Shown here in pieces: positions 13,901 through 64,000 of a stretch of 64,000 nt of DNA. The DNA lies in NCBI GenBank assembly GCA_030141605.1, contig JAQGDQ010000946.1, positions 1 through 64,000 of the forward strand. The letters run 5' to 3'. Every line of letters starts with the position of its first letter. Within the stretch, counting starts at the first letter, position 1. Position numbers and translations under genes: made by a program. The notes below the pieces were generated by a model. That model searched no databases. It was not told the origin of the DNA and saw nothing but the letters and a program-made list of their open reading frames with translations. This DNA comes from Tubiluchus corallicola (lineage: Eukaryota; Animalia; Priapulida).

Positions 13901-16900
13901 TTTATCTGTAAGAAAAATCATAACAAAATATAACAAACTAATTTTACTAAAGAAACAAGGAAATTAATAATAAAGTCAGACTGAATAAACTTACATCATG
14001 GCTCTACTACTCTTGACAAATAAATGGTTTAACTGAGACAAACAACAACAACAACAACTCTCTTAGCCAAGAACAGACTGCCAACTAGCCAGGTAAACTA
14101 GCTGTGTCAGTAGAGCATGACAGAAAGAAGCCAAGTCAAGACATACATACGAATGCAGTTAAAGGACAGCATAGGGGGGTTTACAGAATGAGAGAACACT
14201 GAAGTAATAAAATAACCTAAAATCCTTCACAGTCACCAATCGCTGGAACTGTGAAAAGGCTTAATCGCTTAGTGCAACAAATAAAACATTCCAAGATTTA
14301 TTTTACTCTTTGATTAATCAATAACTGGGATGCTGTGTAGCCATAGATGTTACATGTTGATGTTATCATAGCTCTACTGCCGTTTGGCATACACCAAGCA
14401 AAACAGTGACACGTCTGTCTGTGACTGTTTATGGGGAAATCTTTGTATAACCGTTTTTCTTGCAGTAATTATAAATGACTATCTGAACTAACTATGGCTG
14501 TTCCTTATTTTCAGGCAGGAAAAATCCAGGTATTTGACATAGCTTCCGCAGTGTTGCTGGAGACAGTAGATGCTCACGAAGGTGCAGTGTGGTCTATCTG
14601 TTTGACACCTGACAATGTAAGACTTATTAGCTTATAAATTTCACAGAAATATGCGCTTAGATCATTATTGTTGTGGTTACGGCAATATTGCATATTGACA
14701 AATGTCGAAATTTGCTCAGATATGATGTATAGATACATAATTTTCTGGATGATTTGGACAATGTATATTTTACTTCTTTTAATCATGTCAATTCCCTTTA
14801 TTTAGACTCTGTCAGTGGATGCTTATGTTTTGGCATGATTTAGTTGATACACTAAGGCATTTTGTTCAAAGATCTCAAAATATGATCTTAAGATAGATTT
14901 TTGTAAACAATAATAATAATAATATTAGTATATTTATCATTTTAATGTAAACAATGACCGATTCCTATGTCTTAACAACATATGGACAAAGTTTTATGTA
15001 TATTAGTTATGAATTAATAACGAGTGAAAGAGCTCAATATCGTTATCATATATTTCAATAGCTGATATATTTCATTATACTTCGGAAGCTGTTGTGCCAT
15101 CTGGATTACCATAATCTGTTTTGCATTTTTTGATTTCGAAACGAAGGATGTATTACGTCATAACACTTAGTGAATGCAATACTAATTAGTCACTTCATTT
15201 AACGACAGTCTGTTAGCGTGTCCTGCTCTAGGTGTTTAAACTTTTTTGTTTTGCAAGCAAACGTAAATTCAATAATGAGGGAATAATGTACTGAGTACAG
15301 TGTGGTGTGTGATATTGACCAATCAGATTTGCTGTTGAGATTGTTTGTGTGTTAAGTTATCACGTGTGTTTGTTTGATGCCGTGCTTGGTCAACTTGTGC
15401 ACAAGCTTTGGTAAAATACGATGTAAGATGACTGTGTTGCTAATGTTGTGAATTGTTACATAATTCTTACATTATATGTTCATGTGGCTTAGAAACTAAT
15501 TCTTTATCGTTTTTTAGACAGATAATTTTACGTCTAGTTTACTTGGCAGTTTTTTCGGGGCAAATAAACTGTGATGAAAATCATGAATGACATTAGCTCA
15601 GAGCTGTTTGAATTTTAAATTTCTGAACAAACACATTTTATAAACAATTTGTTCATTTGTTCTTGCTTATGCCTTATTTTTTTATAACCGTATTTTTACT
15701 TATTGTCAAAAAGAGAGACAAAATAAAACCTCTGGCCGCAGTTATTGCTGATAAAGAGGCCCCAGGAAGAAGAAACGGTACACAGGTAATGTGGCTGTTG
15801 AAGATGAAATACATAAAAATAGATTGTGATTTAATACCCTATGAAATACATTCAATAGTATAATTCTACTTACTAATAAAATGTACCACACTGGCAAGCG
15901 AATTGACGAGTATTTTTTATATATGTTTAAACAATATATAAATGATATTGTTTAAACATATATAAAAAAATGATATTGTTTAAACATATATAAAAAATGA
16001 TATTGTTTAAACATATATAAAAAAATGATATTGTTTAAACATATATAAAAAATGATATTGTTTAAACATGTATAAAAAATACTCGTCAATTCGCGTGCCA
16101 GTGTGGTACATTTTATTAGTAAGTAGAATTCTACTATTGAACGTATTTCATAGTATATTAAATCACAATCTATTTTCATGTATTTCATCTTCAACAGCCA
16201 CATTACCTGTGAACTGTTTCTTCTTCCTGAGGCCTCTTTATTGCTTAAATTTGTGCATTTGATTTTACAGCGAGGAATTGTATCTGGTAGCGCCGATAAG
16301 CAGATCAAGTTCTGGAATTTTGAGATGATCTCGCATGAACAAGCTACGACATCAAGGTAGGGTTTTCAAATGCTAGTTTCACAAGTGCACTTATGTTAGA
16401 AATTGTTCTTTTTGATAAATACTATTATTTAGATGTCGCCAGTGCTTAAAAGATTGTTTTGTTTTTCCAGCAAACGGTTAAGCTTGATTCACACTCGCAC
16501 ACTACAGATGTCAGAAGATGTTCTATGTGTGAAGTGCAGCCATGATGGTCGATTGTTAGCTGTTTCATTATTAGACAATACAATTAAGGTGTTTTTTTTG
16601 GATACACTGAAGGTATGTGATTGTGACTTGAAAAATTTTTTAAATTTTCCATAAACTTTATTGACCATTTTTTATATTTGCATCACACTAAGCATGACTT
16701 AGAGAACACAATATTTGCTGATTTGAAAAACTCACATATAGATTGTCCTTATCACATTTTATTACCAATAGATAAGCTTCTTACTGTAAGCTGTTCTGCT
16801 TGAAAATTACTTCTTGTGTGTAAGCATGCGAGTAACATCTTAATTGTTAAAAACCAGATTTGATAACGACAAAACATAAACTTCTATCTTGCACGGTTTC

Positions 16901-19900
16901 AAAAATTTAAATTTTATTTAACCCAAAAATGTTTACTAAAAATTTATCCCCGTGATGTTTGCATGGTACTGCAAAAATAAACGTTAAAAAAAGGAGTTGG
17001 AGTGTTGACTTGAATTGTTTTTTAAAGTACATACACAGTTTTCAATGTAAGCATACTGGAATGTTGCAAAGTAGGTACTTTGTTTTTATTGCTTAGCATG
17101 TTAATAATATTCAGATAGTAATAAGTTGCAAGCCATTTGTAATGCAACTTCCTTTTAATGTAAATAGTAATAAATTGCAAGCCATTTATAATGCAACTTC
17201 ATTTTAATGTAAATAGTAATAAGTTGCAAGCCATTTGTAATGCAACTTCTTTTTAATGTAAATATTAGCAAGTTGCAAGCCATTTGTAATGCAACTTACT
17301 TTTAATGTAAACAATAATAAGTTGCAAGCCATTTGTTAAGCAACTTACTTTTAATGTAAATACTAATAAGTTGCAAGCCATTTGTTATGCAACTTACTTT
17401 TAATGTAAATAGTAATAAGTTGCAAGCCATTTGTAATGCAACTTACTTTTAGTGTAAATAATAATAAGTTGCAAGCCATTTGTAATGCAACTTAATTTTA
17501 GTGTAAATAATAATAAGTTGCAAGCCATTTGTAATGCAACTTTTAATGTAAATAGTAATAAATTGCAAGCCTTTTGTAATGCAACTTCCTTTTAATGTAA
17601 ATACTAATAAGTTGCAAGCCATTTGTAATGCAACTTGCTTTTAAAGGAAATGCTTGTAGCTGGCCAAGAATCTATCTGATTTTTAGCAAGTCATCTAAGT
17701 TAAAAAGACTGTAAATTGAAATATCTTTTGCCTGAAATTACTTACGTAATTCAAACGAGGATTTCCTCACAATTTCCCGCAGTACTGCCTGCGTATTATT
17801 ACGCATTCATCCAACTATAAACGATTTCTCTTAGTTGCTAATAATGTGCGATTTTTCTCTTTCTAGTTTTTCTTATCTCTGTACGGTCATAAGTTGCCTG
17901 TGTTGTCTCTGGACATTTCAACTGATAATACATTGTTGGTTAGCGGGTCAGCTGATCGCAATGTTAAATTGTGGGGCATGGATTTCGGTGATTGCCACAA
18001 GTCAATATTTGCTCATGATGATAGGTAAGTTCACATTTTACTTGTTACTAAAGTTTTACTTCCGTACTTGCAATTATTTATGTTATCAAACATGCGTTTT
18101 TCTGTTTTAATGACATTTTAATAGCAGACATGCAAGGTTAATAATAATCATTCTTATGTTGATAAAATGTTACTAGCCATCAATGATGAATAAATGAAGT
18201 CTTTTTTACGTATTTTATTACCCATTATCAGTATTCTCTCTCTGTACTGAAAATTGAGATAAGCAGTCAATGAATATTTAATGTAACGTACTCATTTTGT
18301 ACGCAAATATATGTCAGTAAGCCTTTTCGCAGTTTCGTTTTGCACACGCGCAGTTCCTGTAGGTCAAAAGTTAAATGTACCGCAGCAATACATCTGAACT
18401 ACAACTGTTACGCAATATGTGGATAAAGCAAAGCCATCTGCTGTATTAGTTCAGTAACCTGAACTTTACTTAATTATGAATTAGTCTGTGCATAGAGTGA
18501 TTTACTAGCAGGATCTTGTTTGGAAACAAGAAAAAATGATATAGGTAAAGTTCTAGCTAGCTGTTAAAACTGTTACTATTACAGTAGCATGGGCTGTGAG
18601 GCGTTGCCAAGTGTACATAAATGCGCTGTCACGCACACTTTAACTTTTGACCTATTCACGATCATCATCAATCGCTGGAACTGTGACAATGTTTTGAATG
18701 CAAAACTTAACTTAAACATAACTTAACAGAACGTAAAAGAATGCAAAACTTTTGTATTAAGCATATTAAATTTTACAAAACTATCTGTACGTTTTGTAAT
18801 TTAATGTGGCCTAAATGTATTACAAATATATTAATAAAAGTAATGCATTTTGTTTAATATGAGACCATTGATATGCTTTAACCTGAGCTATGATTTTGTA
18901 ATAACATTTGTTAGATTAATTACAATTATAATGATATTAAATTAGAAAAAAAGGTTCACGTTGCTTTCAAAATTTAAGAACCGGCGTTTTCCATGTGATA
19001 TCCTCCGCCTAGTTTCGAGATACAGTGTGAGCATCCCCACAAGTCTACAGCACCTGGTATTCCTAGGCGGTCACTCATCAAAGTACTAACCAGACTCTAC
19101 GTTGCTTAACTTCGGTGATCAGACGGAACTGGTGTTTTCAACGTGATTTGGCCGTAGATTTGGATAATGTGTACACAGTCTTTATCACACAATGACGTTC
19201 ATAACAAATTTAGAATCCGGTTTGATACTAAAGTGGATAGCAGCAAAGCTTCGTCCGAGTTTGCCTCAGGCTGCTTAAGCTTTGCACATCATTATTGTGT
19301 ATTTTTCCAATCATATAAATCACTTCATGTTTTCTCGGATTTATTTTACTAAGTTGTGAAAGTTGAAAAAGGAAAAATGCTATGAACACATTTTCTAAGA
19401 TTATTATTTCAAAGGCAATGCTAAAACAGGTCTTATCAGTTTTAACAATCAGGCTTAAAGCAGTTCTTTCAATATATTGTTGTTTACTGTATGTTGTATG
19501 ATAGTTATTAATTTTGACCAAACAGCATGCAGAAAAAAACGTTGTAGCGGCGCCTGGTGGGACTCTCGGAAGGAGATATATAGCTCTTTAGAAAGAGGAG
19601 GAACAGGGCTACACGATGATGTGGGCCATACTTTAGTACACGTCCACTAAGAGGAGTATCGACGAGTTAATTAGATGTTCTATTTTCTGCAATTTTCGCT
19701 TAGAAAACTCTAATAATTTGCATTATTTTTCAGTTGTCCTGTAAACGTTTTTTTTAAATTTCTTTTTTTAGTATCATGTGTGTGCAGTTTATACCAAACA
19801 CGCACATGTTTGTCTCTTGCGGGAAGGATAAAAATGTGAAGCAATGGGACGGCGACACTTTTGAGAAAATCTTGACGTTGCAGGTATTGCTTTCCTGTGT

Positions 19901-22900
19901 TTGTGTTATTTTGAGTTTTTGTACTTACTACAGATGTGGGGGTTGCAAACCTAAACTGTTCATAAGTGGGCATAGTTAAAACTACGTTATGATGCTTCAA
20001 AGTAGAATGACCCAAAAACTTGCTCAAATGTGAATTTTTGTTTTTTATAAAAACAAATGCAATATATATTGCATTTTTATATTCTAGCATCAAGAAAATG
20101 ACCAAAAAATACTAAAAACTTAATTTTAAAACACTTTACCCACTTTTCTGGCTAAAAACTAGTCATGCAATTGTAAAAAGCTTGCATTTTCAAACTCCAA
20201 TAGTAGCTTACGGAAGCAATCATTTTGCTTTAGGTTTTTTCTACTGCCAAGCCCAGATCTTCGTCGGGAACAGCCATCTGCTGGCCTTAAATAGAACTTC
20301 AATGTGTTCTTGTAAAGTCCGTAGTAACTAATATTTGTGCGGTTGTTAAGTGTTTTGCAGAAATGCGACAAAAAAACAATGGCCAACTTTAACAGTGATT
20401 TTCTCAAGATTATGTTCTTCACTGCATAGCCTGCACCTCAACTTCAACGTGGATTATCTCAGCTTACAAATAACATAGAGCCATGAAGTTGGTATCAAAA
20501 TGATCCTCATGGAATGGAGAGTTAGGCTGTGTGAATAGCTAGAACAGCTTAACTGCTGACCATAACTACGCATATTACATTTGAGCAGTAAGCCTGTAAG
20601 GACAGTAAAGACTTGATAATCTGTTCGCACTTTTTTGAACAATTTTTTATTTCATTGCATTGCTACTACCATGAGATTAATTTTGGATTACTCACTTATA
20701 AGATAGGTTTGGCCTTTAGGCTGGTCTTTTCTCTTTGTTTTTCGTGTAATACGTTTTAGCCACTTTTTATCTTGTGAAAACTTAATAGAGCAACAAACGA
20801 CGTAGACAGACAGTTGGACAGAAAAACCCAATAACCAGTAACCCAGTTCTTTGCATTCCAAACCAGTTTATTTGTGCCAATATGATAGCATGAATGTAAA
20901 ATTTTTAAAAAGCAGTCTTCAAGCTGTATTAGTTGTTTTTTTTGGCTAGATTTGTAATGATTGTTTGTTTAACGAGTTACCTATGCTGGATACAATCAAT
21001 TCAGTGAAATTGTTTTAAAGAAGTTAAGAATTTAGTTGGTAGGCTATTGTTTGCAATTTGTGTTTGCATAGCCAAATTAAGTTAGCTTTTAATTAGTTAG
21101 TTTTCCCTATAGAATTCTGCTTTACTAATTTTGTTTTCACTTTGTTTTGCGTAAATTGGCATGACTTTATTTGCCATAATTTGCTATTAATTTAATTTTG
21201 ATCTGTTTTTCGTATTCTATTCTTTATTTTTTTCTAATAATATTTGCTCGCCATGCTGAAATTAGTACTCACTATTTAGGGATGGCAGACTAGATGACCT
21301 TTTGGTCTTTCACCATCCCGTCCTTCTCTAAACTTTGTAACTCGTTGTTATATACTATCTATGATTGTTATACTGAAGGCAAAAAATAAGTTATTGTTAT
21401 TGTTGTTGTTGTTGTTGTTGTTGCTGCTGTTGTTGCTGTTGTTGTTGTTGTTGTTGTTGTTGTGGTGGTGGTTGTGGTGGCGGTGGCGGTGGTTGTTGCT
21501 GTTGTTATACCCATGAGCATAATGGGTACAGTGCACTATTTTGGTGAATGTTTGTTATTATGAATGCTGATAGTTTGCACTAAACTCATACAGAACTCTT
21601 CTCTCTTCTGTCACAAAATTATTTGGTTTTGAAAACGTTTCCTTTGGCTGGCAAACTAATCTGCTACGCGCTCTCTATTACACGAAAACTTAATGGCAGT
21701 AAGCTTACACCATTAGTAATTTAGCATAGATGTTCAAGTAGATCTTTTTCTTACTAGGGTCACCATGCAGAGGTGTGGTGTGTAGCTGTTAGTCCTAGTG
21801 GTAACTACATTGTGTCAGCCTCCCATGACAAGTCACTGAGGTTGTGGGAGAAATCACAGGAACCACTAGTACTGCAGGAAGAGCAGGAAGAGGAACGGGA
21901 AATGGAATATGAAGCCAGTGTGGTACAGACCAGAGATACAGTGGTATGTAGAAATTTGTTGCCTTACTGTATCTTTTAGCTTTGCACTAAAAAAAATATC
22001 TGATGCCTATACAGTAGGCATCGTTTATTTGATTCACATTTCATAGAATCAGTTGCTTAATTGACTCAAGAACGGCTGGAACTGGCTGCCCCGATTCAAA
22101 TGTGTATAAAACTGTTAGTAATTGACTCAAATAACTCTGCATCTTTTGAAGTAATCACAAAAACTTTTATTTTAAATTCAATATTACAGAAAAAGTAAAA
22201 TATGTGGCAGTTTCTTCGCTTCCAATGAGTAGACTAAAAAACGTGCTCAATTCTGATTGGCTGACCTACTAAATGCACATAACGAAGCCATGTTTTACAG
22301 GCAATTCTAAATAAGTACAACTTTAGATTAAAGAGCAAGCAGAGAAAAATCTTACGAACACTGCATGATTGACTCAATATTTTTACTTCACGTACTTAAA
22401 ATAAGATACTTGTGTGTGACAAAGAGCTTTTACTGATTTTACATCATTTTTATGTCGCTTTTATGTGTTTGTGTCACTGCGTATAATATACGTAGAAGTA
22501 GCCATGTTAAATACAGTTTGTATATAAGAAGGTACAGTACATTTATTATATGCGCTAATATGTTAGCGTAGCGGGTTTGCTTTCAATCTGTCACCCTGCT
22601 GTAGTAACCTCGTTGTTTCTGGTAGCTAAACATTTGACCTTAAACTTGACCAGCGGTTTGCTTTTGAAGTTCCGGCTGCTTTTCGCAAGGTCATCACCAA
22701 CTGCAGTTCAAGCACTATACGTACAATATGTACACTATACAGCAACAGATTTTCAACTTTTTTTATCAACATGAGAATTTCATAAACCAACTTCTTTGTG
22801 AAGAAATGAAGCAGCCGACCTTGCGTGTAATTTTTTAGTTTTAATAATTAGATTTGTGCATTTTTTTCTTTCTTTATTAATTCACTTATGTAAAGTATGT

Positions 22901-25900
22901 TTCTTAAATAATTGCACATAGGAATTTTGACGTTAATTCGTTTCTAAAATTCATTTAAAGCCTTTGCAATGCATTCTAAAGTGGTAAGTCATGACTCATA
23001 CTTCTATAGTAATAGGCAACAACCATCGGCATCCGTTAATTGAATCAGTCGGTTAATCGGGTCAGAACACTTCCATCCCAAGTGAGTCTATTAAACGGCG
23101 TCTAGCGTAAGTGCATCCAAGAATTCCAAATGTGCAAATTAGAACCTTGTGCCAGAGTTTAAATTTTCAAGTTTTATTCAATATCTCAACAATAATACAA
23201 GCCTTGTATGCAGCAAGACGGCATGTAGGTGATACGTACAACTTTAAGAATATATTTTTAGCTTTATATAACAATGGTGTTTCGTTGTGCTTTAACGAAT
23301 TGCAGGCTGTCTTATTGCAACCCGTGTTTTATCATGTTTATTTTGATATTATTTTCTCACCTCGAAGTTGTTTTCCATAGCGCACATTCTCTTATTCACG
23401 CCTGTTGTCTAGTCCTTTGTGATACTTGCCTCTGTTTTCTTATCATGTGGGAATTGTGCATTTTTTGAACTCCTCTTCTGAACTCTTATTTCATTTTCTC
23501 TATCTTTGTCTATTATTTTATCTTAACTATCTATCAATCTTTTATATCATCTCACATATGAGCTTCATTCATTACACCATTCCATTCTGTAGCACTAATG
23601 TTTTGTTTATCATACGATTCACTTCAAATTTTCAGATTATTTTCATTATTATTTTTTCTTTCACAGTATGGGACGATCTAACCCCAAGCCCTGCTTTTTC
23701 ATTGCCCGCAACACATTTACATTTGTATATATAGCAAACCTAAACTATGGTATTTCTAAACTAGTTATGTGCTCAAAGTAAACTGTATACGCATTTACTA
23801 AGCAACATACAACAGTGATAATTCTCTTGTTTATCTTTCAACCCCACAGTGTTTTGAGAGTCTAGTTAGTATATTTGTAATGATGCTGTACATAACGTTG
23901 TTTAGACACCAGTATTAAAGGACGTAGCGATATCACTATCTTTGTTTACCATAGGTCTAAAGACGATTTAAATCATTTTTTTCGAAATTTGCTTCCTATT
24001 ATGTATCTTACTGTTTGTTATTCATCGAATTATTGATAACTTTTTGTTTCTTTTAATGTATTAATTGTGTATTTGTGTTGATGTGAAATAAGTAAATAAT
24101 AAAAATAAAAATTTGTTCTAGATTCCTGGTGAGGCTTCGGTTAAGGAAGCTGCTTTGGCAGGAAAGAAGACCATTGAGACTTACAAAGCGGTTTGTAATT
24201 AGTTTGTGCTTACATAGTTAACATGTAGGCAGGTTATGGCATGATATTTGTAATGGACATTCAACGTACACTCACATCTCGGTTTGCCAGACAAAAGAGG
24301 GGAGACGTCCGTCCGAATTTGCGGATTGTCTGTGTTTTCCGATACTAAACAATACAGTAAGTGTATTAGATTCATGGTAATGTAGAATTAATTCACCTAA
24401 CTGTCTCAAAAACATCAAGTACGGGCCGCTCCTATGCAAAACTGTATAAAAACTGTCGCAATTGACTCAAATAACTCTGCATAATTGACTCTATATTTTT
24501 ATGCATAGATATGTACACATGGTTATGCTGATGTAAGGTATGTAAACAAAGTGACGCCCCGTCATTTAGTGGTCCACCTGCCAAATAACAGACTGTTTTC
24601 ATAGTATGTGGGACTTTTAATGGACTAGATTTTGTCCAAATTTTCCGATAACCGTAAAAGCGAGGTCCGGCAAACCGAGATATGAAAATATAAATTTCAT
24701 AGTGGCCTAGTGTATTTAAAGGTAGACCGGACGATTGTTTAGACTCAATCTCATTTTAATTTACTGTCCTAAATATACATTTTCTTGCCTATAAAAGTTA
24801 ACAGTTTTTCCTTATATTTGAATAATTAGCTTAGAAAGTTAATTAACAGCAACCGAACACAGCTATTGCTTACGTCAGAAACTAACCACAGTTTGTGGAA
24901 TGGCAGGCATATTCCCTTGTGCTTCAAGCACATTTGCATAAGTGTTACAGTACTGCTTAAATGCATGATGTCACGAAAAATGGGCTTTGCATCATATGAC
25001 TTCAGAAACTAACACTGTAGTTCATGATCATACTTATCACGGCACCGCCTTCTATTTGTCGGCCACACGCACGTGACAAAAAGGCTCCACTGCCAATCTT
25101 AGTAGATTCACTGAGATGCGCGTAGCTTTGAAAGTTTAACAAAATTTGAATAGCCGAGGAATTATTGTTTAATCTGAGCTTTGATTTGAGAAAAAACTAT
25201 TGCAGTTTTCAATATTTTAGAGCATTCTTAATTTTGAACTAAGAACTAAGGCTTGTGAATGAGTAGCAAAAGAACAAAGAAGTCATCTTGGTCACCCATC
25301 CATCCTACATGTTCTATTATTAACAACATATAGGTACTCTCTAGGTGGCATCTGGGCAATTGAAATATTACAATTGCTTACTAGATAGTTAATTTATATT
25401 TATGTCACATTTGATGAATTACAATTACTTTAGAAAATAATTTATTTATATATTTATATATTAATTGTTTAAACTAATTGTAACTTATCAAAGGAATATA
25501 AACATAAATTAATTATTTCCTGTAACTGTAATATTTCAATTGCCAAATTCTGTCTAACAGATTGACTATATTTTATTAGTAATAGCCCATATTTTCCTAT
25601 ATAAGTCATCACTAACTCTTGCATTTAATTATGATATTATTATGTATCTTGTGATTAGGGGTGAGCATTCTCTACCAGAAAGCGAATTCGAATCGAACTG
25701 AATTTGTGACTTTCGAATTCGAATCGAACCGAACTTCAGTGTTTCGAATTCGAATCGAACCGAACTTCAGTGTTTCGAACCGAATTCGAATTGAGATTGA
25801 ACGATTTTCGAACCACCAGGAAAAATTAGTCTTACAAAGATCATGTGTATCACTAGATTTTGTTCTGCAATAAAACGACTAGTAATTTGCTTAGAGTTGT

Positions 25901-34508: not shown

Positions 34509-34518
34509 AATAAATAAA
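34509..34518 (+). promoter_or_regulatory. Candidate WDR3 polyadenylation signal (overlapping AATAAA x2)
   Basis: First AATAAA hexamers downstream of the stop codon and the 29-bp array. Confidence 0.5.
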
Positions 34519-43852: not shown

Positions 43853-44038
43853 AGCTTAAAGATATTTGGTTGTTTTTATTTATTCAGTATCATAGTTTTA
43901 TCATCAAAAATAAACTATTCAAAATTAATAATCTATATCTAGACTGTCTGATTATTTACAACAATTGTACAAAATTCACTATCTTCATCCTCTTGTTAAG
44001 TGTTTAAACTTGGTAATAAAGTGAAATTCACAGAAAAT

Positions 44039-50300: not shown

Positions 50301-53300
50301 AATAATAATGGCCGACTATCTAACTGGCTTCAATAATCGTCCATGGCTTATGCCACGTGCAACCATCATTGCAATAGTTCATGAAACGAGGATAATTGGC
50401 TCTTTACCCGAAAAATTACAAGTTGCAACAATCATAAAACACACTGCCTACAAATTTCACTATGACCAATGCACAAACCTTGATCTGATTTTACGTAAAA
50501 TCTCCAAGACAAGCCTCTCTGCTGAAATACTGCCGTATGCTACACACAGAGGATGTAAAGGAAGATCTCCTGTTTGCTGTAAAGCGAAATAGATGATTAA
50601 CATTTAAAAATAATAATAAATTACAAAAAATTCTCATTTAAAAAAGTCGAACGATATCATTAACTGGGTTGCACGAACTCATTTTAACAGAATTTATATG
50701 AAAAACAAAATTTCCTACAACTGTTTCAGTGGACTTTTGTTAGTGAACTTTTGCAGAAAAAAGGAAGTTCAGCCAAAAAGAACACACAAAAAACAACGCC
50801 ATCACAAAAAACTCAGAGATACCGTTAAAAACACATCGAAATGTGCCATTAAATTCTATCCAAAAAAAAAACTTTGACACATGACAACATAAAAGTGAAT
50901 GCTACCTGACGCTAGGGTACCATCTACAGGTGCAAATTCTATAAAACTTCCTTATTCCTCACTATAAATTATCTAATGTCAATCTATATAAAGTAACATT
51001 TTATTCACCATTGCAATTTACACTAACTCAATTATAATTACATGTTAACACGAAATTAAGTGATAAGTCATTTATTTCATATTACACATTTACAATAGTT
51101 TCATGTACAATATCAAGTGAAAGGGCCTACAATGAACATAATACAAATAAGAAATACTGCACAGGAAAAGCCTCAAACACTGTTCACCTATATACAAAGG
51201 TAAATGTGTTGCGGGTAATCAAAAAGCAGGGCTTGTTAGATTGTCCCACACAGTGAAAGAAAAAAAAAGTAATGGAAATAATCCGAAAATTTAAAGTGAA
51301 TCGTATGATAAAAAAAATTTAGTGCTTAAAATGGAATGATGTAATGAATGAAGCTCATATATGGGATGATATAAAAGATAGAAAGACTATTATATGTTAA
51401 TAGTATGTAAAATTAAGATAACTTGATTAAGCTAACACCACTGTTTTGCAACTTACTTTTTCATCCGGTCCTAGATGCTCCTGCTCACGCATTGTCCTCT
51501 TCTGGATATCCTCTCGATAAACGTTTACTGCTTCCATTAATCTTTCAGCCTAAAATAAAATTGATTATACAAGTTTAATTATTGCAATTACACTGGCCAC
51601 AGTTGCATGATGAAACGTCTCATTCTGCCAGGAAAACACACTTTCATACTCCACACAGCTCATATTTTACGTCTACTGCCAAAATGCATTATGTGGCTTC
51701 TTTAACCCTTTCATACCCGTTGTATCCCGTGGGATACGAGAATATTTTCTGCCTTTAAAATGAATAAAAGTTTAAAACTGACAGTTATTTGATCTGTTAA
51801 TAGTTATTTTTAGTTAAGCCAATAACAAAAGACTAAAAATGGTGATAAAATGGCAAACTAGAAAATCTACATAGCATAAAAACTGCGCAAGGTACAGTAC
51901 TTTAGAGATGACTTTGTACAGATCAGCATAGCATAATTAGTATGTGTAAACAAAGATGGACATACTGAACAAAAGTAACAAGCCAAAAAATTTTTCTTTT
52001 TAAAAAAATAATTTGGGACTGAAAGGGTTAAGTATTTAGTACAGACTCTGATTGAACATTCGCATAGAATCCCCCTGTTTCACAATTAGTATTCCATCTG
52101 CCACGAATATTTGTCTTCAAAGATGAACGAAATATTGTCTGAGCATGTAGAAAAGATGCAAATTCCACTGAAGCCAACAATGAGTAACAAGAGCTGTCTA
52201 CAAACTGTGTGACAAGGCAGTGTGTTTTGAATAACTAAATTTCAAACATATACATTTTTTCATACTTGAGAACTTTATTACAGAACTAGTAACAGTAGTA
52301 GGGGTGAGCATCGAACGCTCGAATTCGATTCGAACGAGTTTTTTTAGTTCGAACTCGATTCGAATCCAAAACTAGATTCGAATAATTCAGCACTTCAATC
52401 ACATATGTTCCTGATCATTAAAACGATTGAAACATCATGCAATTAACATAATTTAGTTGTTATTTCTGCGCACAACTCTAAGCAAATTACTAGTCGTTTT
52501 ATTGCAGAACAAAATCTAGTGATACACATGATCTTTGTAAGACTAATTTTTCCTGGTGGTTCGAAAATCGTTCAATCTCAATTCGAATTCGGTTCGAAAC
52601 ACTGAAGTTCGGTTCGATTCGAATTCGAAACACTGAAGTTCGGTTCGATTCGAATTCGAAAGTCACAAATTCAGTTCGATTCGAATTCGCTTTCTGGTAG
52701 AGAATGCTCACCCCTAATCACAAGATACATAATAATATCATAATTAAATGCAAGAGTTAGTGATGATTTATATAGAGGAAAATATGGGCTATTACTAATA
52801 AAATATAGTCAATCTGTTAGACAGAATTTGGCAATTGAAATATTACAGTTACAGGAAATAATTAATTTATGTTTATATTCCTTTGATAAGTTACAATTAG
52901 TTTAAACAATTAATATATAAATATATAAATAAATTATTTTCTAAAGTAATTGTAATTCATCAAATGTGACATAAATATAAATTAACTATCTAGTAAGCAA
53001 TTGTAATATTTCAATTGCCCAGATGCCACCTAGAGAGTACCTATATGTTGTTAATAATAGAACATGTAGGATGGATGGGTGACCAAGATGACTTCTTTGT
53101 TCTTTTGCTACTCATTCACAAGCCTTAGTTCTTAGTTCAAAATTAAGAATGCTCTAAAATATTGAAAACTGCAATAGTTTTTTCTCAAATCAAAGCTCAG
53201 ATTAAACAATAATTCCTCGGCTATTCAAATTTTGTTAAACTTTCAAAGCTACGCGCATCTCAGTGAATCTACTAAGATTGGCAGTGGAGCCTTTTTGTCA

Positions 53301-56300
53301 CGTGCGTGTGGCCGACAAATAGAAGGCGGTGCCGTGATAAGTATGATCATGAACTACAGTGTTAGTTTCTGAAGTCATATGATGCAAAGCCCATTTTTCG
53401 TGACATCATGCATTTAAGCAGTACTGTAACACTTATGCAAATGTGCTTGAAGCACAAGGGAATATGCCTGCCATTCCACAAACTGTGGTTAGTTTCTGAC
53501 GTAAGCAATAGCTGTGTTCGGTTGCTGTTAATTAACTTTCTAAGCTAATTATTCAAATATAAGGAAAAACTGTTAACTTTTATAGGCAAGAAAATGTATA
53601 TTTAGGACAGTAAATTAAAATGAGATTGAGTCTAAACAATCGTCCGGTCTACCTTTAAATACACTAGGCCACTATGAAATTTATATTTTCATATCTCGGT
53701 TTGCCGGACCTCGCTTTTACGGTTATCGGAAAATTTGGACAAAATCTAGTCCATTAAAAGTCCCACATACTATGAAAACAGTCTGTTATTTGGCAGGTGG
53801 ACCACTAAATGACGGGGCGTCACTTTGTTTACATACCTTACATCAGCATAACCATGTGTACATATCTATGCATAAAAATATAGAGTCAATTATGCAGAGT
53901 TATTTGAGTCAATTGCGACAGTTTTTATACAGTTTTGCATAGGAGCGGCCCGTACTTGATGTTTTTGAGACAGTTAGGTGAATTAATTCTACATTACCAT
54001 GAATCTAATACACTTACTGTATTGTTTAGTATCGGAAAACACAGACAATCCGCAAATTCGGACGGACGTCTCCCCTCTTTTGTCTGGCAAACCGAGATGT
54101 GAGTGTACGTTGAATGTCCATTACAAATATCATGCCATAACCTGCCTACATGTTAACTATGTAAGCACAAACTAATTACAAACCGCTTTGTAAGTCTCAA
54201 TGGTCTTCTTTCCTGCCAAAGCAGCTTCCTTAACCGAAGCCTCACCAGGAATCTAGAACAAATTTTTATTTTTATTATTTACTTATTTCACATCAACACA
54301 AATACACAATTAATACATTAAAAGAAACAAAAAGTTATCAATAATTCGATGAATAACAAACAGTAAGATACATAATAGGAAGCAAATTTCGAAAAAAATG
54401 ATTTAAATCGTCTTTAGACCTATGGTAAACAAAGATAGTGATATCGCTACGTCCTTTAATACTGGTGTCTAAACAACGTTATGTACAGCATCATTACAAA
54501 TATACTAACTAGACTCTCAAAACACTGTGGGGTTGAAAGATAAACAAGAGAATTATCACTGTTGTATGTTGCTTAGTAAATGCGTATACAGTTTACTTTG
54601 AGCACATAACTAGTTTAGAAATACCATAGTTTAGGTTTGCTATATATACAAATGTAAATGTGTTGCGGGCAATCAAAAAGCAGAGCTTGTTAGATCGTCC
54701 CATACTGTGAAAGAAAAAATAATAATGAAAATAATCTGAAAATTTGAAGTGAATCGTATGATAAACAAAACATTAGTGCTACAGAATGGAATGGTGTAAT
54801 GAATGAAGCTCATATATGAGATGATATAAAAGATTGATAGATAGTTAAGATAAAATAATAGACAAAGATAGAGAAAATGAAATAAGAGTTCAGAAGAGGA
54901 GTTCAAAAAATGCACAATTCCCACATGATAAGAAAACAGAGGCAAGTATCACAAAGGACTAGACAACAGGCGTGAATAAGAGAATGTGCGCTATGGAAAA
55001 CAACTTCGAGGTGAGAAAATAATATCAAAATAAACATGATAAAACACGGGTTGCAATAAGACAGCCTGCAATTCGTTAAAGCACAACGAAACACCATTGT
55101 TATATAAAGCTAAAAATATATTCTTAAAGTTGTACGTATCACCTACATGCCGTCTTGCTGCATACAAGGCTTGTATTATTGTTGAGATATTGAATAAAAC
55201 TTGAAAATTTAAACTCTGGCACAAGGTTCTAATTTGCACATTTGGAATTCTTGGATGCACTTACGCTAGACGCCGTTTAATAGACTCACTTGGGATGGAA
55301 GTGTTCTGACCCGATTAACCGACTGATTCAATTAACGGATGCCGATGGTTGTTGCCTATTACTATAGAAGTATGAGTCATGACTTACCACTTTAGAATGC
55401 ATTGCAAAGGCTTTAAATGAATTTTAGAAACGAATTAACGTCAAAATTCCTATGTGCAATTATTTAAGAAACATACTTTACATAAGTGAATTAATAAAGA
55501 AAGAAAAAAATGCACAAATCTAATTATTAAAACTAAAAAATTACACGCAAGGTCGGCTGCTTCATTTCTTCACAAAGAAGTTGGTTTATGAAATTCTCAT
55601 GTTGATAAAAAAAGTTGAAAATCTGTTGCTGTATAGTGTACATATTGTACGTATAGTGCTTGAACTGCAGTTGGTGATGACCTTGCGAAAAGCAGCCGGA
55701 ACTTCAAAAGCAAACCGCTGGTCAAGTTTAAGGTCAAATGTTTAGCTACCAGAAACAACGAGGTTACTACAGCAGGGTGACAGATTGAAAGCAAACCCGC
55801 TACGCTAACATATTAGCGCATATAATAAATGTACTGTACCTTCTTATATACAAACTGTATTTAACATGGCTACTTCTACGTATATTATACGCAGTGACAC
55901 AAACACATAAAAGCGACATAAAAATGATGTAAAATCAGTAAAAGCTCTTTGTCACACACAAGTATCTTATTTTAAGTACGTGAAGTAAAAATATTGAGTC
56001 AATCATGCAGTGTTCGTAAGATTTTTCTCTGCTTGCTCTTTAATCTAAAGTTGTACTTATTTAGAATTGCCTGTAAAACATGGCTTCGTTATGTGCATTT
56101 AGTAGGTCAGCCAATCAGAATTGAGCACGTTTTTTAGTCTACTCATTGGAAGCGAAGAAACTGCCACATATTTTACTTTTTCTGTAATATTGAATTTAAA
56201 ATAAAAGTTTTTGTGATTACTTCAAAAGATGCAGAGTTATTTGAGTCAATTACTAACAGTTTTATACACATTTGAATCGGGGCAGCCAGTTCCAGCCGTT

Positions 56301-59300
56301 CTTGAGTCAATTAAGCAACTGATTCTATGAAATGTGAATCAAATAAACGATGCCTACTGTATAGGCATCAGATATTTTTTTTAGTGCAAAGCTAAAAGAT
56401 ACAGTAAGGCAACAAATTTCTACATACCACTGTATCTCTGGTCTGTACCACACTGGCTTCATATTCCATTTCCCGTTCCTCTTCCTGCTCTTCCTGCAGT
56501 ACTAGTGGTTCCTGTGATTTCTCCCACAACCTCAGTGACTTGTCATGGGAGGCTGACACAATGTAGTTACCACTAGGACTAACAGCTACAGACCACACCT
56601 CTCCATGGTGACCCTAGTAAGAAAAAGATTTACTTGAACATCTATGCTAAATTACTAATGGTGTAAGCTTACTGCCATTAAGTTTTCGTGTAATAGAGAG
56701 CGCGTAGCAGATTAGTTTGCCAGCCAAAGGAAACGTTTTCAAAACCAAATAATTTTGTGACAGAAGAGAGAAGAGTTCTGTATGAGTTTAGTGCAAACTA
56801 TCAGCATTCATAATAACAAACATTCACCAAAATAGTGCACTGTACCCATTATGCTCATGGGTATAACAACAGCAACAACCACCGCCACCGCCACCACAAC
56901 CACCACCACAACAACAACAACAGCAACAACAGCAGCAACAACAACAACAACAACAACAATAACAATAACTTATTTTTTGCCTTCAGTATAACAATCATAG
57001 ATAGTATATAACAACGAGTTACAAAGTTTAGAGAAGGACGGGATGGTGAAAGACCAAAAGGTCATCTAGTCTGCCATCCCTAAATAGTGAGTACTAATTT
57101 CAGCATGGCGAGCAAATATTATTAGAAAAAAATAAAGAATAGAATACGAAAAACAGATCAAAATTAAATTAATAGCAAATTATGGCAAATAAAGTCATGC
57201 CAATTTACGCAAAACAAAGTGAAAACAAAATTAGTAAAGCAGAATTCTATAGGGAAAACTAACTAATTAAAAGCTAACTTAATTTGGCTATGCAAACACA
57301 AATTGCAAACAATAGCCTACCAACTAAATTCTTAACTTCTTTAAAACAATTTCACTGAATTGATTGTATCCAGCATAGGTAACTCGTTAAACAAACAATC
57401 ATTACAAATCTAGCCAAAAAAAACAACTAATACAGCTTGAAGACTGCTTTTTAAAAATTTTACATTCATGCTATCATATTGGCACAAATAAACTGGTTTG
57501 GAATGCAAAGAACTGGGTTACTTGTTATTGGGTTTTTCTGCCCAACTGTCTATCTACGTCGTTTGTTGCTCTATTAAGTTTTCACAAGATAAAAAGTGGC
57601 TAAAACGTATTACACGAAAAACAAAGAGAAAAGACCAGCCTAAAGGCCAAACCTATCTTATAAGTGAGTAATCCAAAATTAATCTCATGGTAGTAGCAAT
57701 GCAATGAAATAAAAAATTGTTCAAAAAAGTGCGAACAGATTATCAAGTCTTTACTGTCCTTACAGGCTTACTGCTCAAATGTAATATGTGTAGTTATGGT
57801 CAGCAGTTAAGGTGTTCTAGCTATTCACACAGCCTAACTCTCCATTCCATGAGGATCATTTTGATACCAACTTCATGGCTCTATGTTATTTGTAAGCTGA
57901 GATAATCCACGTTGAAGTTGAGGTGCAGGCTATGCAGTGAAGAACATAATCTTGAGAAAATCACTGTTAAAGTTGGCCATTGTTTTTTTGTCGCATTTCT
58001 GCAAAACACTTAACAACCGCACAAATATTAGTTACTACGGACTTTACAAGAACACATTGAAGTTCTATTTAAGGCCAGCAGATGGCTGTTCCCGACGAAG
58101 ATCTGGGCTTGGCAGTAGAAAAAACCTAAAGCAAAATGATTGCTTCCGTAAGCTACTATTGGAGTTTGAAAATGCAAGCTTTTTACAATTGCATGACTAG
58201 TTTTTAGCCAGAAAAGTGGGTAAAGTGTTTTAAAATTAAGTTTTTAGTATTTTTTGGTCATTTTCTTGATGCTAGAATATAAAAATGCAATATATATTGC
58301 ATTTGTTTTTATAAAAAACAAAAATTCACATTTGAGCAAGTTTTTGGGTCATTCTACTTTGAAGCATCATAACGTAGTTTTAACTATGCCCACTTATGAA
58401 CAGTTTAGGTTTGCAACCCCCACATCTGTAGTAAGTACAAAAACTCAAAATAACACAAACACAGGAAAGCAATACCTGCAACGTCAAGATTTTCTCAAAA
58501 GTGTCGCCGTCCCATTGCTTCACATTTTTATCCTTCCCGCAAGAGACAAACATGTGCGTGTTTGGTATAAACTGCACACACATGATACTAAAAAAAGAAA
58601 TTTAAAAAAAACGTTTACAGGACAACTGAAAAATAATGCAAATTATTAGAGTTTTCTAAGCGAAAATTGCAGAAAATAGAACATCTAATTAACTCGTCGA
58701 TACTCCTCTTAGTGGACGTGTACTAAAGTATGGCCCACATCATCGTGTAGCCCTGTTCCTCCTCTTTCTAAAGAGCTATATATCTCCTTCCGAGAGTCCC
58801 ACCAGGCGCCGCTACAACGTTTTTTTCTGCATGCTGTTTGGTCAAAATTAATAACTATCATACAACATACAGTAAACAACAATATATTGAAAGAACTGCT
58901 TTAAGCCTGATTGTTAAAACTGATAAGACCTGTTTTAGCATTGCCTTTGAAATAATAATCTTAGAAAATGTGTTCATAGCATTTTTCCTTTTTCAACTTT
59001 CACAACTTAGTAAAATAAATCCGAGAAAACATGAAGTGATTTATATGATTGGAAAAATACACAATAATGATGTGCAAAGCTTAAGCAGCCTGAGGCAAAC
59101 TCGGACGAAGCTTTGCTGCTATCCACTTTAGTATCAAACCGGATTCTAAATTTGTTATGAACGTCATTGTGTGATAAAGACTGTGTACACATTATCCAAA
59201 TCTACGGCCAAATCACGTTGAAAACACCAGTTCCGTCTGATCACCGAAGTTAAGCAACGTAGAGTCTGGTTAGTACTTTGATGAGTGACCGCCTAGGAAT

Positions 59301-62300
59301 ACCAGGTGCTGTAGACTTGTGGGGATGCTCACACTGTATCTCGAAACTAGGCGGAGGATATCACATGGAAAACGCCGGTTCTTAAATTTTGAAAGCAACG
59401 TGAACCTTTTTTTCTAATTTAATATCATTATAATTGTAATTAATCTAACAAATGTTATTACAAAATCATAGCTCAGGTTAAAGCATATCAATGGTCTCAT
59501 ATTAAACAAAATGCATTACTTTTATTAATATATTTGTAATACATTTAGGCCACATTAAATTACAAAACGTACAGATAGTTTTGTAAAATTTAATATGCTT
59601 AATACAAAAGTTTTGCATTCTTTTACGTTCTGTTAAGTTATGTTTAAGTTAAGTTTTGCATTCAAAACATTGTCACAGTTCCAGCGATTGATGATGATCG
59701 TGAATAGGTCAAAAGTTAAAGTGTGCGTGACAGCGCATTTATGTACACTTGGCAACGCCTCACAGCCCATGCTACTGTAATAGTAACAGTTTTAACAGCT
59801 AGCTAGAACTTTACCTATATCATTTTTTCTTGTTTCCAAACAAGATCCTGCTAGTAAATCACTCTATGCACAGACTAATTCATAATTAAGTAAAGTTCAG
59901 GTTACTGAACTAATACAGCAGATGGCTTTGCTTTATCCACATATTGCGTAACAGTTGTAGTTCAGATGTATTGCTGCGGTACATTTAACTTTTGACCTAC
60001 AGGAACTGCGCGTGTGCAAAACGAAACTGCGAAAAGGCTTACTGACATATATTTGCGTACAAAATGAGTACGTTACATTAAATATTCATTGACTGCTTAT
60101 CTCAATTTTCAGTACAGAGAGAGAATACTGATAATGGGTAATAAAATACGTAAAAAAGACTTCATTTATTCATCATTGATGGCTAGTAACATTTTATCAA
60201 CATAAGAATGATATTAAGTTATTATTAACCTCGCATGTCTGCTATTAAAATGTCATTAAAACAGAAAAACGCATGTTTGATAACATAAATAATTGCAAGT
60301 ACGGAAGTAAAACTTTAGTAACAAGTAAAATGTGAACTTACCTATCATCATGAGCAAATATTGACTTGTGGCAATCACCGAAATCCATGCCCCACAATTT
60401 AACATTGCGATCAGCTGACCCGCTAACCAACAATGTATTATCAGTTGAAATGTCCAGAGACAACACAGGCAACTTATGACCGTACAGAGATAAGAAAAAC
60501 TAGAAAGAGAAAAATCGCACATTATTAGCAACTAAGAGAAATCGTTTATAGTTGGATGAATGCGTAATAATACGCAGGCAGTACTGCGGGAAATTGTGAG
60601 GAAATCCTCGTTTGAATTACGTAAGTAATTTCAGGCAAAAGATATTTCAATTTACAGTCTTTTTAACTTAGATGACTTGCTAAAAATCAGATAGATTCTT
60701 GGCCAGCTACAAGCATTTCCTTTAAAAGCAAGTTGCATTACAAATGGCTTGCAACTTATTAGTATTTACATTAAAAGGAAGTTGCATTACAAAAGGCTTG
60801 CAATTTATTACTATTTACATTAAAAGTTGCATTACAAATGGCTTGCAACTTATTATTATTTACACTAAAATTAAGTTGCATTACAAATGGCTTGCAACTT
60901 ATTATTATTTACACTAAAAGTAAGTTGCATTACAAATGGCTTGCAACTTATTACTATTTACATTAAAAGTAAGTTACATAAGAAATGGCTTGCAACTTAT
61001 TACTATTTACATTAAAAGTAAGTTGCTTAACAAATGGCTTGCAACTTATTATTGTTTACATTAAAAGTAAGTTGCATTACAAATGGCTTGCAACTTGCTA
61101 ATATTTACATAAAAAGAAGTTGCATTACAAATGGCTTGCAACTTATTACTATTTACATTAAAAAGAAGTTGCATTATAAATGGCTTGCAATTTATTACTA
61201 TTTACATTAAAAGGAAGTTGCATTACAAATGGCTTGCAACTTATTACTATCTGAATATTATTAACATGCTAAGCAATAAAAACAAAGTAACTACTTTGCA
61301 ACATTCCTTATGCTTACATTGAAAACTGTGCATGTACTTTAAAAAACAATTCAAGTTCACACTCCAACAACATTTTTAAAGTTTATTTTTGCAGTTCCAT
61401 GCAAACATCGCAGGGATAAATTTTTAGTAAACATTTTTGGGTTAAATAAAATTTAAATTTTTGAAACCGTGCAAGATAGAAGTTTATGTTTTGTCGTTAT
61501 CAAATCTGGTTTTTAACAATTAAGATGTTACTCGCATGCTTACACACAAGAAGTAATTTTCAAGCAGAACAGCTTACAGTAAGAAGCTTATCTATTGGTA
61601 ATAAAATGTGATAAGGACAATCTATATGTGAGTTTTTCAAATCAGCAAATATTGTGTTCTCTAAGTCATGCTTAGTGTGATGCAAATATAAAAAATGGTC
61701 AATAAAGTTTATGGAAAATTTAAAAAATTTTTCAAGTCACAATCACATACCTTCAGTGTATCCAAAAAAAACACCTTAATTGTATTGTCTAATAATGAAA
61801 CAGCTAACAATCGACCATCATGGCTGCACTTCACACATAGAACATCTTCTGACATCTGTAGTGTGCGAGTGTGAATCAAGCTTAACCGTTTGCTGGAAAA
61901 ACAAAACAATCTTTTAAGCACTGGCGACATCTAAATAATAGTATTTATCAAAAAGAACATTTTCTAACATAAGTGCACTTGTGAAACTAGCATTTGAAAA
62001 CCCTACCTTGATGTCGTAGCTTGTTCATGCGAGATCATCTCAAAATTCCAGAACTTGATCTGCTTATCGGCGCTACCAGATACAATTCCTCGCTGTAAAA
62101 TCAAATGCACAAATTTAAGCAATAAAGAGGCCTCAGGAAGAAGAAACAGTTCACAGGTAATGTGGCTGTTGAAGATGAAATACATGAAAATAGATTGTGA
62201 TTTAATATACTATGAAATACGTTCAATAGTAGAATTCTACTTACTAATAAAATGTACCACACTGGCACGCGAATTGACGAGTATTTTTTATACATGTTTA

Positions 62301-63848
62301 AACAATATCATTTTTTATATATGTTTAAACAATATCATTTTTTATATATGTTTAAACAATATCATTTTTTTATATATGTTTAAACAATATCATTTTTTTA
62401 TATATGTTTAAACAATATCATTTATATATTGTTTAAACATATATAAAAAAAACTCGTCAATTCGCTTGCCAGTGTGGTACATTTTATTAGTAAGTAGAAT
62501 TATACTATTGAATGTATTTCATAGTATATTAAATCACAATCTATTTTTATGTATTTCATCTTCAACAGCCACATTACCTGTGACCCGTTTCTTCTTCCTG
62601 GGGCCTCTTTATCAGCAATAACTGCGGCCAGAGGTTTTATTTTGTCTCTCTTTTTGACAATAAGTAAAAATACGGTTATAAAAAAATAAGGCATAAGCAA
62701 GAACAAATGAACAAATTGTTTATAAAATGTGTTTGTTCAGAAATTTAAAATTCAAACAGCTCTGAGCTAATGTCATTCATGATTTTCATCACAGTTTATT
62801 TGCCCCGAAAAAACTGCCAAGTAAACTAGACGTAAAATTATCTGTCTAAAAAACGATAAAGAATTAGTTTCTAAGCCACATGAACATATAATGTAAGAAT
62901 TATGTAACAATTCACAACATTAGCAACACAGTCATCTTACATCGTATTTTACCAAAGCTTGTGCACAAGTTGACCAAGCACGGCATCAAACAAACACACG
63001 TGATAACTTAACACACAAACAATCTCAACAGCAAATCTGATTGGTCAATATCACACACCACACTGTACTCAGTACATTATTCCCTCATTATTGAATTTAC
63101 GTTTGCTTGCAAAACAAAAAAGTTTAAACACCTAGAGCAGGACACGCTAACAGACTGTCGTTAAATGAAGTGACTAATTAGTATTGCATTCACTAAGTGT
63201 TATGACGTAATACATCCTTCGTTTCGAAATCAAAAAATGCAAAACAGATTATGGTAATCCAGATGGCACAACAGCTTCCGAAGTATAATGAAATATATCA
63301 GCTATTGAAATATATGATAACGATATTGAGCTCTTTCACTCGTTATTAATTCATAACTAATATACATAAAACTTTGTCCATATGTTGTTAAGACATAGGA
63401 ATCGGTCATTGTTTACATTAAAATGATAAATATACTAATATTATTATTATTATTGTTTACAAAAATCTATCTTAAGATCATATTTTGAGATCTTTGAACA
63501 AAATGCCTTAGTGTATCAACTAAATCATGCCAAAACATAAGCATCCACTGACAGAGTCTAAATAAAGGGAATTGACATGATTAAAAGAAGTAAAATATAC
63601 ATTGTCCAAATCATCCAGAAAATTATGTATCTATACATCATATCTGAGCAAATTTCGACATTTGTCAATATGCAATATTGCCGTAACCACAACAATAATG
63701 ATCTAAGCGCATATTTCTGTGAAATTTATAAGCTAATAAGTCTTACATTGTCAGGTGTCAAACAGATAGACCACACTGCACCTTCGTGAGCATCTACTGT
63801 CTCCAGCAACACTGCGGAAGCTATGTCAAATACCTGGATTTTTCCTGC
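44377..63848 (-). CDS. WDR3: Second WDR3 copy in the right palindrome arm (last 12 exons visible; 5' part beyond the window, completeness unknown)
   Basis: Mirror exons with intact splice sites and frame: 63848-63747, 62092-62007, 61892-61751, 60499-60342, 58587-58476, 56613-56428, 54252-54184, 51549-51457, 50576-50479, 48643-48515, 47847-47754, 44529-44377 (stop). Two amino-acid differences seen in exon 56428-56613. Confidence 0.85.
46447..46769 (-). mobile_element. 5'-truncated RTE-clade LINE (mirror copy)
   Basis: Mirror of 31624-31946 with an identical 86-aa translation in the ORF track. Confidence 0.9.
59200..59318 (+). pseudogene. 5S rRNA pseudogene (mirror copy)
   Basis: Mirror of 19041-19159. 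Confidence 0.85.
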
Positions 63849-64000
63849 CTGAAAATAAGGAACAGCCATAGTTAGTTCAGATAGTCATTTATAATTACTG
63901 CAAGAAAAACGGTTATACAAAGATTTCCCCATAAACAGTCACAGACAGACGTGTCACTGTTTTGCTTGGTGTATGCCAAACGGCAGTAGAGCTATGATAA

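What the first reader, a model, noticed from the sequence alone, without database searches (positions are those of the whole stretch)
14363..64000. Gene-bearing palindrome of at least 49.6 kb with a 2.5-kb spacer
Seen: 14363-37929 and 40465-64000 are near-identical reverse complements, and the right arm runs to the window edge, so the structure is larger. It duplicates at least 12 WDR3 exons and a sulfotransferase catalytic exon. Established: long, spacer-containing gene palindromes are known from mammalian sex chromosomes and from fold-back/inv-dup rearrangements, and WDR3/UTP12 is usually a single-copy ribosome-biogenesis gene. Inference: a recent inverted segmental duplication, possibly maintained by arm-to-arm gene conversion.
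Basis: partly seen in the sequence, partly recalled or inferred. Interest (0 to 1): 0.85.

Follow-up and report, generated by a model that had tools for sequence, protein, structure and literature searches.

The report
Mirror-image WDR3 locus, likely false duplication
The assembled sequence holds two mirror-image 23.6-kb copies of one animal gene region, but the copies differ only about as much as alleles of this region do and the second sulfotransferase copy lacks its first exon, so it is likely an assembly join of two alleles, or else an ordinary recent inverted duplication, rather than a maintained palindrome.

Summary
Observation confirmed in the assembly: 14363-37929 and 40465-64000 are reverse complements (99.44%; 80 substitutions, 17 indels), the spacer is 2,535 bp and the window has no N. 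The arms hold 12 WDR3 exons, a 5S rRNA gene and CHST exon 2. New: the CHST first coding exon lies in the spacer, so the left copy is whole, the right copy is headless, and 40464/40465 is the derived join. Arm divergence (0.41%) falls inside the interval for allelic differences that public contigs show in the spacer (3-4 in 1,616 bp). The only long GA tract ends 148 bp from the fold point, and no exact microhomology is visible. Against an artefact: the join is gapless and the GA tract is identical in both arms. Arm depth and read support for the join stayed untested. Best reading: false duplication of two alleles (0.48), as shown for Adineta palindromes. Rivals: real fold-back duplication 0.35, heterozygous spacer inversion 0.10, conversion-maintained palindrome 0.07. 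The scan noted a similar unresolved case in a fish (e1-9202929).

The parts
14363..37929 (+). Left arm; the native orientation, continuous with the 5' part of WDR3 on its left and with CHST exon 1 on its right
37930..40464 (.). Spacer, 2,535 bp, present once; holds CHST exon 1, repeats and a 16-bp-unit array
40465..64000 (-). Right arm, reverse complement of the left arm, open at the window edge
40464..40465 (.). Derived join: cuts the 16-bp array inside a unit; 0 bp exact inverted microhomology on the side that can be tested
   Evidence: sequence
1971..34016 (+). WDR3/UTP12 gene, residues 58-937 of a 939-aa hemichordate homologue; 9 exon hits left of the arm and 12 exons inside it; the first ~57 residues were not found in 1-1975
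44377..63848 (-). Mirror copy of the last 12 WDR3 exons; two amino-acid differences (A/G, C/S) in one exon; whether the 5' exons follow beyond the window is unknown
38629..38806 (-). Predicted first coding exon of the CHST11-like sulfotransferase (start codon, transmembrane anchor, phase-1 GT donor), inside the spacer
   Evidence: spliced model 373 aa, hydropathy peak 2.04 at residue 21
36355..37298 (-). CHST11-like catalytic exon 2, left copy; predicted to splice to exon 1
41096..42039 (+). CHST exon 2, right copy; intact frame, one synonymous difference, no first exon in its orientation
37621..37781 (+). (GA)n tract with runs of 44, 5 and 25 units, ending 148 bp from the fold point; identical mirror at 40613-40773
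39929..40464 (+). Degenerate 16-bp-unit array of a middle-repetitive element, truncated at the derived join
19042..19159 (-). 5S rRNA gene in a WDR3 intron; identical mirror at 59200-59317

Best explanation
The palindrome is likely a false duplication, in which the two alleles of one ordinary WDR3-CHST locus would have been written head-to-head, joined at 40464/40465. Shown: the left arm plus spacer is a complete native locus (WDR3 on +, a two-exon CHST on -), the right arm starts abruptly inside a repeat array, and it carries a headless CHST exon. Inferred: one allele's contig ended at 40464, the other ended 2.5 kb earlier, just past a long GA tract where long-read contigs tend to break; the two ends were then joined in opposite orientation without a gap. 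The 'spacer' would simply be the extra reach of the first contig, and the 97 differences would be heterozygous sites.
For: Arm divergence is 0.41% (97 events in 23,567 bp); differences between the window and contigs of sample S1 in the spacer are 3-4 in 1,616 bp, 0.19-0.25%, 95% interval 0.04-0.63% (small n). Contig ends fall exactly before 38729 (X2) and 39149 (X1), which I read as two alleles in S1, and two of these sites lie 5 bp apart, clustered like the arm differences. Differences look biological and are shared evenly: 9 vs 10 of 20 polarisable substitutions. Coding sequence has 3 substitutions in about 2,392 bp against 8.7 at the non-coding rate, and the headless CHST exon is still intact. 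The only purine tract of 40 bp or more in 1-40464 ends 148 bp from the fold point, chance about 2-4%, post hoc; 10 of 15 filled HiFi gaps in HG002 held GA-rich repeats (PMC9668749, passage). No exact microhomology at the join. Precedent: Adineta vaga palindromes vanished in a chromosome-level assembly (PMC8494291, passage); false duplications are among the commonest assembly errors (10.1101/2020.05.22.110833).
Against: The window has no N, whereas scaffolded false duplications are often separated by gaps (Box 1). The GA tract with a 44-unit run is letter-identical in both arms, which is unlikely for two independent alleles. The 2,802 bp next to the fold have 1 difference, fewer than any equal window further out (minimum 2). 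The 2.5-kb spacer is typical of real fold-back duplications (median 3,428 bp, PMC3907307). The coding deficit is not significant if only one copy drifts (P 0.37) or if clusters are counted (2 seen, 3.2 expected). Allele-level divergence is also expected in a real duplication that has recombined with normal chromosomes (inference).
Confidence: 0.48

Rival explanations
1. A real, fairly recent fold-back inverted duplication. A broken or stalled strand at 40464 would have turned back and primed at 37929, copying the WDR3 3' part and CHST exon 2 in reverse. Later recombination or conversion with normal chromosomes would have brought allele-level differences into the arms. The extra CHST copy is headless; the extra WDR3 copy is whole only if the arm runs on beyond the window.
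For: Gapless, single clean join; spacer within the 766-70,466 bp range of human inverted duplications (PMC3907307); identical GA tract and the most homogeneous stretch next to the fold; long tandem arrays are resolved almost identically in both arms, which suggests accurate long reads (inference).
Against: Exact inverted microhomology is 0 on the testable side and the imperfect match is not above chance (8-11% of random end points); no identity gradient along the arm (Spearman -0.21, P 0.52); divergence matches the allelic level.
Confidence: 0.35
2. A heterozygous 2.5-kb inversion of the spacer. One haplotype would carry the spacer flipped, so the 40464/40465 join is real, but the assembler switched from one haplotype to the reverse of the other inside the spacer. 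The arms are alleles and no palindrome exists.
For: Explains both a gapless join and allele-level arm divergence; the spacer appears to have two alleles in sample S1.
Against: Long reads should span 2.5 kb (inference); the inverted allele would separate CHST exon 1 from exon 2; the identical GA tract is not expected.
Confidence: 0.1
3. An older, true palindrome kept similar by arm-to-arm gene conversion, as on mammalian Y chromosomes. The long identical tracts would be conversion tracts and the dense islands would be unconverted remnants.
For: Differences are strongly clustered: median spacing 23 bp against 168 expected, dispersion 4.72 against a maximum of 1.67 in 5,000 shuffles, and 17,993 of 23,567 bp lie in identical tracts of 500 bp or more.
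Against: Two of the three spacer substitutions seen in reads are clustered too, and 31 of 32 clusters span 151 bp or less, which short-read polishing could also give (inference). No weak-to-strong skew between arms (29 vs 27; unpolarised). The right CHST copy is headless. No sign of a non-recombining region was testable.
Confidence: 0.07

Closest known systems
Allelic 'palindromes' of the Adineta vaga 2013 assembly (PMC5916493, PMC8494291; passages read)
   Same: Form g1A g2A ... g2B g1B: homologous gene runs head-to-head on one scaffold; later judged likely scaffolding artefacts of phased haplotypes.
   Different: Those came from a short-read assembly with scaffold gaps; this join has no N and lies in sequence with resolved tandem arrays.
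False heterotype duplication (VGP, 10.1101/2020.05.22.110833, Box 1 read; PMC9668749, passages)
   Same: Two haplotype copies of one locus side by side in a primary assembly, differing at allele level; chimeric joins without a gap are also listed in PMC9668749.
   Different: Described mostly as tandem and often with a gap; half coverage per copy, the defining test, was not obtained here.
Human fold-back inverted duplications with a disomic spacer (Hermetz 2014, PMC3907307; passages read)
   Same: Arm-spacer-arm anatomy, one derived join, spacer of a few kb.
   Different: Those are de novo, megabase-scale, read- or PCR-validated and mostly carry 2-8 bp inverted microhomology; here none is visible and the arms differ by 0.41%.
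Conversion-maintained palindromes of mammalian Y chromosomes (Rozen 2003, as summarised in PMC7953838, passages) and of the willow W (PMC7023750, search listing only)
   Same: Long gene-bearing arms around a short spacer.
   Different: Those lie in non-recombining regions, and human Y arms are about 99.97% identical (recalled); here 99.44%, with housekeeping genes and one gene cut by the fold.

Membership tests
False heterotype duplication | Copies differ at the organism's allelic level | tested here: met
   0.41% between arms vs 0.19-0.25% (95% interval 0.04-0.63%) in the spacer; only 3-4 sites, and S1 may not be the assembled animal
False heterotype duplication | Combined read depth of the two copies equals single-locus depth | not tested
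   Spacer depth was obtained (161-185 in X1); no depth was obtained for unique arm sequence
False heterotype duplication | Gap or contig end at the join (usual, not obligatory) | tested here: not met
   No N in 64,000 bases
False heterotype duplication | Join absent from independent reads | tested here: inconclusive
   No bridging piece among 32 shown of 13,402; both junctions lie in high-copy repeats
Fold-back inverted duplication | Unduplicated spacer of about 0.8-70 kb between the inverted copies | tested here: met
   2,535 bp, present once in the window; range from PMC3907307
Fold-back inverted duplication | 2-8 bp inverted microhomology, or a homologous repeat pair, at the join | tested here: inconclusive
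   0 bp exact on the testable side, imperfect match reached by 8-11% of random ends; the native sequence beyond 40464 is unknown
Fold-back inverted duplication | Arm copy number above spacer copy number; a second, outer breakpoint | not tested
   No arm depth obtained; the arm runs off the window and no genome is held
Conversion-maintained (Y-type) palindrome | Arm identity of about 99.9% or more (threshold recalled) | tested here: not met
   99.44%
Conversion-maintained (Y-type) palindrome | Junctions older than the arm divergence (shared across individuals or species); non-recombining setting | not testable with these tools
   The one other sample (X3) holds spacer pieces but shows no bridging piece
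Conversion-maintained (Y-type) palindrome | Whole genes in both arms | tested here: inconclusive
   The right CHST copy lacks exon 1; the WDR3 5' mirror would lie outside the window
Amplification or single-read fold-back chimera | Second arm is an error-laden copy of the same molecule | tested here: inconclusive
   Substitutions are shared evenly (9 vs 10 of 20), but 14 of 17 indels shorten the right arm (P 0.013, post hoc); library type is not on record

The most novel reading that the evidence does not exclude
A true palindrome of 50 kb or more in a non-arthropod invertebrate that carries a second complete copy of the essential ribosome-biogenesis gene WDR3, is shared across the population and is homogenised by arm-to-arm conversion, leaving short unconverted islands: a Y-type palindrome around housekeeping genes, possibly marking a non-recombining region.
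Probability: 0.07. Interest if true: 0.5.

Novelty: not a real feature. Interest (0 to 1): 0.15.

Why it matters
If it is a false duplication, it matters as a warning: the assembly would report a spurious second WDR3 and sequence beyond the join would be misplaced. If it is a real fold-back duplication, it is one more member of a well-known class, with a headless CHST copy and an extra WDR3 copy of unknown completeness. Only a population-wide, conversion-maintained palindrome around WDR3 would surprise a specialist, and that reading has little support.

Tried and rejected
Whole genome: none held, so the outer breakpoint and the genome-wide rate of such palindromes could not be checked. Read support for the join: among 32 pieces shown of 13,402 none bridges 40464/40465; both junctions are swamped by high-copy repeats at 90% likeness, and a hole proves nothing. 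Depth of unique arm sequence was not obtained, which leaves the copy-number question open. A 37-base pattern across the join found 0 matches in metagenome contigs, which is no evidence, as the animal need not be in that collection. Transposon-end (alternative transposition) origin: rejected because the join cuts the 16-bp array inside a unit and the spacer has no terminal inverted repeats. Raw sequencing error in one arm as the source of all differences: rejected for substitutions. A first exon for the right CHST copy on the + strand: only the TC-repeat frame passed the hydrophobicity filter. Identity gradient: none. Earlier notes near this window: none; a word search found none with all words. 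Literature searches were for precedents; none was aimed at WDR3 duplications, so I make no claim about that literature. Supplementary figures S6-S7 of PMC8494291 were not seen.
Full report
Observation. Self-BLAST of the window gives one long inverted alignment, 14363-37934 against 64000-40460, 23,582 columns at 99.44%. Without the last five columns the arms are 14363-37929 and 40465-64000 and differ by 97 events, 80 substitutions and 17 indels of 1-12 bp. The spacer is 2,535 bp. The window has no N. No whole genome is held, so the outer end of the right arm is unknown.

Genes. A hemichordate WDR3-like protein (P0121, 939 aa) maps from residue 58 to 937 on the + strand between 1971 and 34013; Pfam WDR3 and Utp12 models hit the exon frames. 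Nine exon hits lie left of the arm. Eleven exons were placed inside it, several with boundaries approximate to a few bases, and a twelfth short candidate scored 62.5 against 2 or less for unrelated ones. Of the 11 compared, only one differs between arms, by two amino-acid changes. The sulfotransferase is CHST11-like (PF03567, E 1.4e-40; best hits 31-35% identical). Its predicted first coding exon, with start codon and membrane anchor, lies in the spacer at 38806-38629 and joins exon 2 (37298-36355) in phase to give 373 aa. The right copy of exon 2 (41096-42039) has no such exon in its orientation and differs by one synonymous base. So left arm plus spacer is the native locus and 40464/40465 is the derived join. 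This agrees with a high-copy repeat that appears to run across the left junction (summed depth 253,509 at 37935-38024 and 480,691 at 40455-40544 in X1; inference) and with the 16-bp array being cut inside a unit at 40464. The organism was not identified; earlier unchecked notes on this genome point to a non-arthropod invertebrate.

Pattern of differences. They are strongly clustered: median spacing 23 bp against 168 expected, dispersion 4.72 against a maximum of 1.67 in 5,000 shuffles, 17,993 of 23,567 bp in identical tracts of 500 bp or more, and 31 of 32 clusters spanning 151 bp or less. Of 80 substitutions, 20 could be compared with other repeat copies in the window: the left letter was the majority in 9, the right in 10, with one tie. 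So neither arm is simply an error-laden copy. However, 14 of 17 indels shorten the right arm (P 0.013, post hoc). Coding sequence has 3 substitutions in about 2,392 bp against 8.7 at the non-coding rate (P 0.026; P 0.37 if only one copy drifts; 2 clusters seen against 3.2 expected). There is no gradient along the arm, but the 2,802 bp next to the fold have one difference, against a minimum of two elsewhere, and the GA tract is identical in both arms.

Public reads. Six runs were listed and four hold part of 35400-40610; X1, X2 and X4 are one sample and X3 is another study. Laid on 37935-40610, X1 has spacer contigs of 802, 442 and 284 bp at depths 183, 161 and 185, with 2, 0 and 0 other letters. 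An X2 contig ends at 38728, just before the X1 differences at 38729 and 38734; the X1 contig ends at 39148, just before an X2 difference at 39149. I read these as two alleles in that sample, which would make about 185 the two-copy depth (inference). Three or four differences in 1,616 covered bases give 0.19-0.25% (95% interval 0.04-0.63%), against 0.41% between arms. None of the 32 pieces shown, of 13,402, bridges the join, which proves nothing. Depth of unique arm sequence was not obtained, so the decisive comparison is open.

The join. Exact inverted microhomology is 0 on the side that can be tested, and the imperfect match is reached by 8-11% of random end points. Human fold-back duplications have spacers of 766-70,466 bp (median 3,428), and 13 of 21 sequenced junctions had 2-8 bp microhomology (PMC3907307, passages): the spacer size fits, the microhomology is not seen. 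The only purine tract of 40 bp or more in 1-40464 ends 148 bp from the fold point (chance about 2-4%, post hoc). GA-rich repeats are a known site of HiFi contig gaps (10 of 15 filled gaps, PMC9668749, passage). They may also be fragile in vivo (recalled), so this clue does not point one way only.

How it most likely arose. I commit to a false duplication (0.48): two allelic contigs ending 2.5 kb apart near the GA tract were joined head-to-head. The gene anatomy and the divergence figures are shown; the assembly history is inferred. The gapless join and the identical GA tract count against it and keep a real fold-back duplication close behind (0.35). A heterozygous inversion of the spacer with a haplotype switch (0.10) would make the join real and the palindrome false. 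A conversion-maintained palindrome (0.07) rests only on the clustering, which alleles or short-read polishing could also give. The two readings without a palindrome sum to 0.58.

Comparison with known cases. Palindromes of allelic genes in the Adineta vaga 2013 assembly (23 blocks; PMC5916493, passages) were not found in the chromosome-level assembly and were judged likely artefacts of scaffolding phased haplotypes (PMC8494291, passages; its figures S6-S7 not seen). A survey of parthenogenetic animals warns that erroneous scaffolding creates artificial palindromes (PMC7953838, passages). False heterotype duplications are among the commonest assembly errors and are diagnosed by half coverage (10.1101/2020.05.22.110833, passages and Box 1). 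Amplification-made palindromes are known too (10.1101/173872, search listing). Membership in the false-duplication class is not proven, because the coverage test is missing; the Y-type class fails on arm identity (threshold recalled).

Verdict. The sequence observation is right, but it is most likely an assembly product and otherwise an ordinary young inverted duplication. Interest 0.15. One depth comparison and a count of reads across 40464/40465 would settle it.

Noticed in passing
window 19042-19159 (-), mirror 59200-59317: A single 5S rRNA gene (Rfam RF00001, 91 bits) inside a WDR3 intron, identical in both arms.
   Followed up: partly
window 38211-38407, second copy 8435-8638: A short interspersed element, 89% alike between the two copies; summed contig depth 1.1-1.6 million in X1 against about 185 for unique sequence, so a very abundant family. 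'SINE-like' is a recalled resemblance.
   Followed up: no
window 38729 and 38734: X1 contigs carry other letters in CHST exon 1: one synonymous, one Met-to-Val change in the predicted membrane anchor.
   Followed up: partly
window 21768 and 21780: The only WDR3 coding differences between the arms are two amino-acid changes 12 bp apart; each arm matches the hemichordate homologue at one of them.
   Followed up: partly
window 15751-16241 and 25314-25585: Self-palindromic elements of about 490 and 270 bp (88% and 74% self-complementary) in WDR3 introns; the first surrounds a 27-bp tandem array.
   Followed up: no
window 39558-40464: A middle-repetitive element ending in a degenerate 16-bp-unit array with 105/121-bp higher-order periods; no other copy in the window.
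   Followed up: partly
window 31618-31917 (+): A 100-aa open frame that resembles the C-terminal end of a LINE ORF2 (recalled resemblance; Pfam gave only a weak unrelated hit).
   Followed up: no
window 34007-34354 and 34542-35348: A 29-bp x 12 array starts at the WDR3 stop region and a 21-bp x 38 array lies between the convergent WDR3 and CHST genes; copy numbers are equal in both arms.
   Followed up: no
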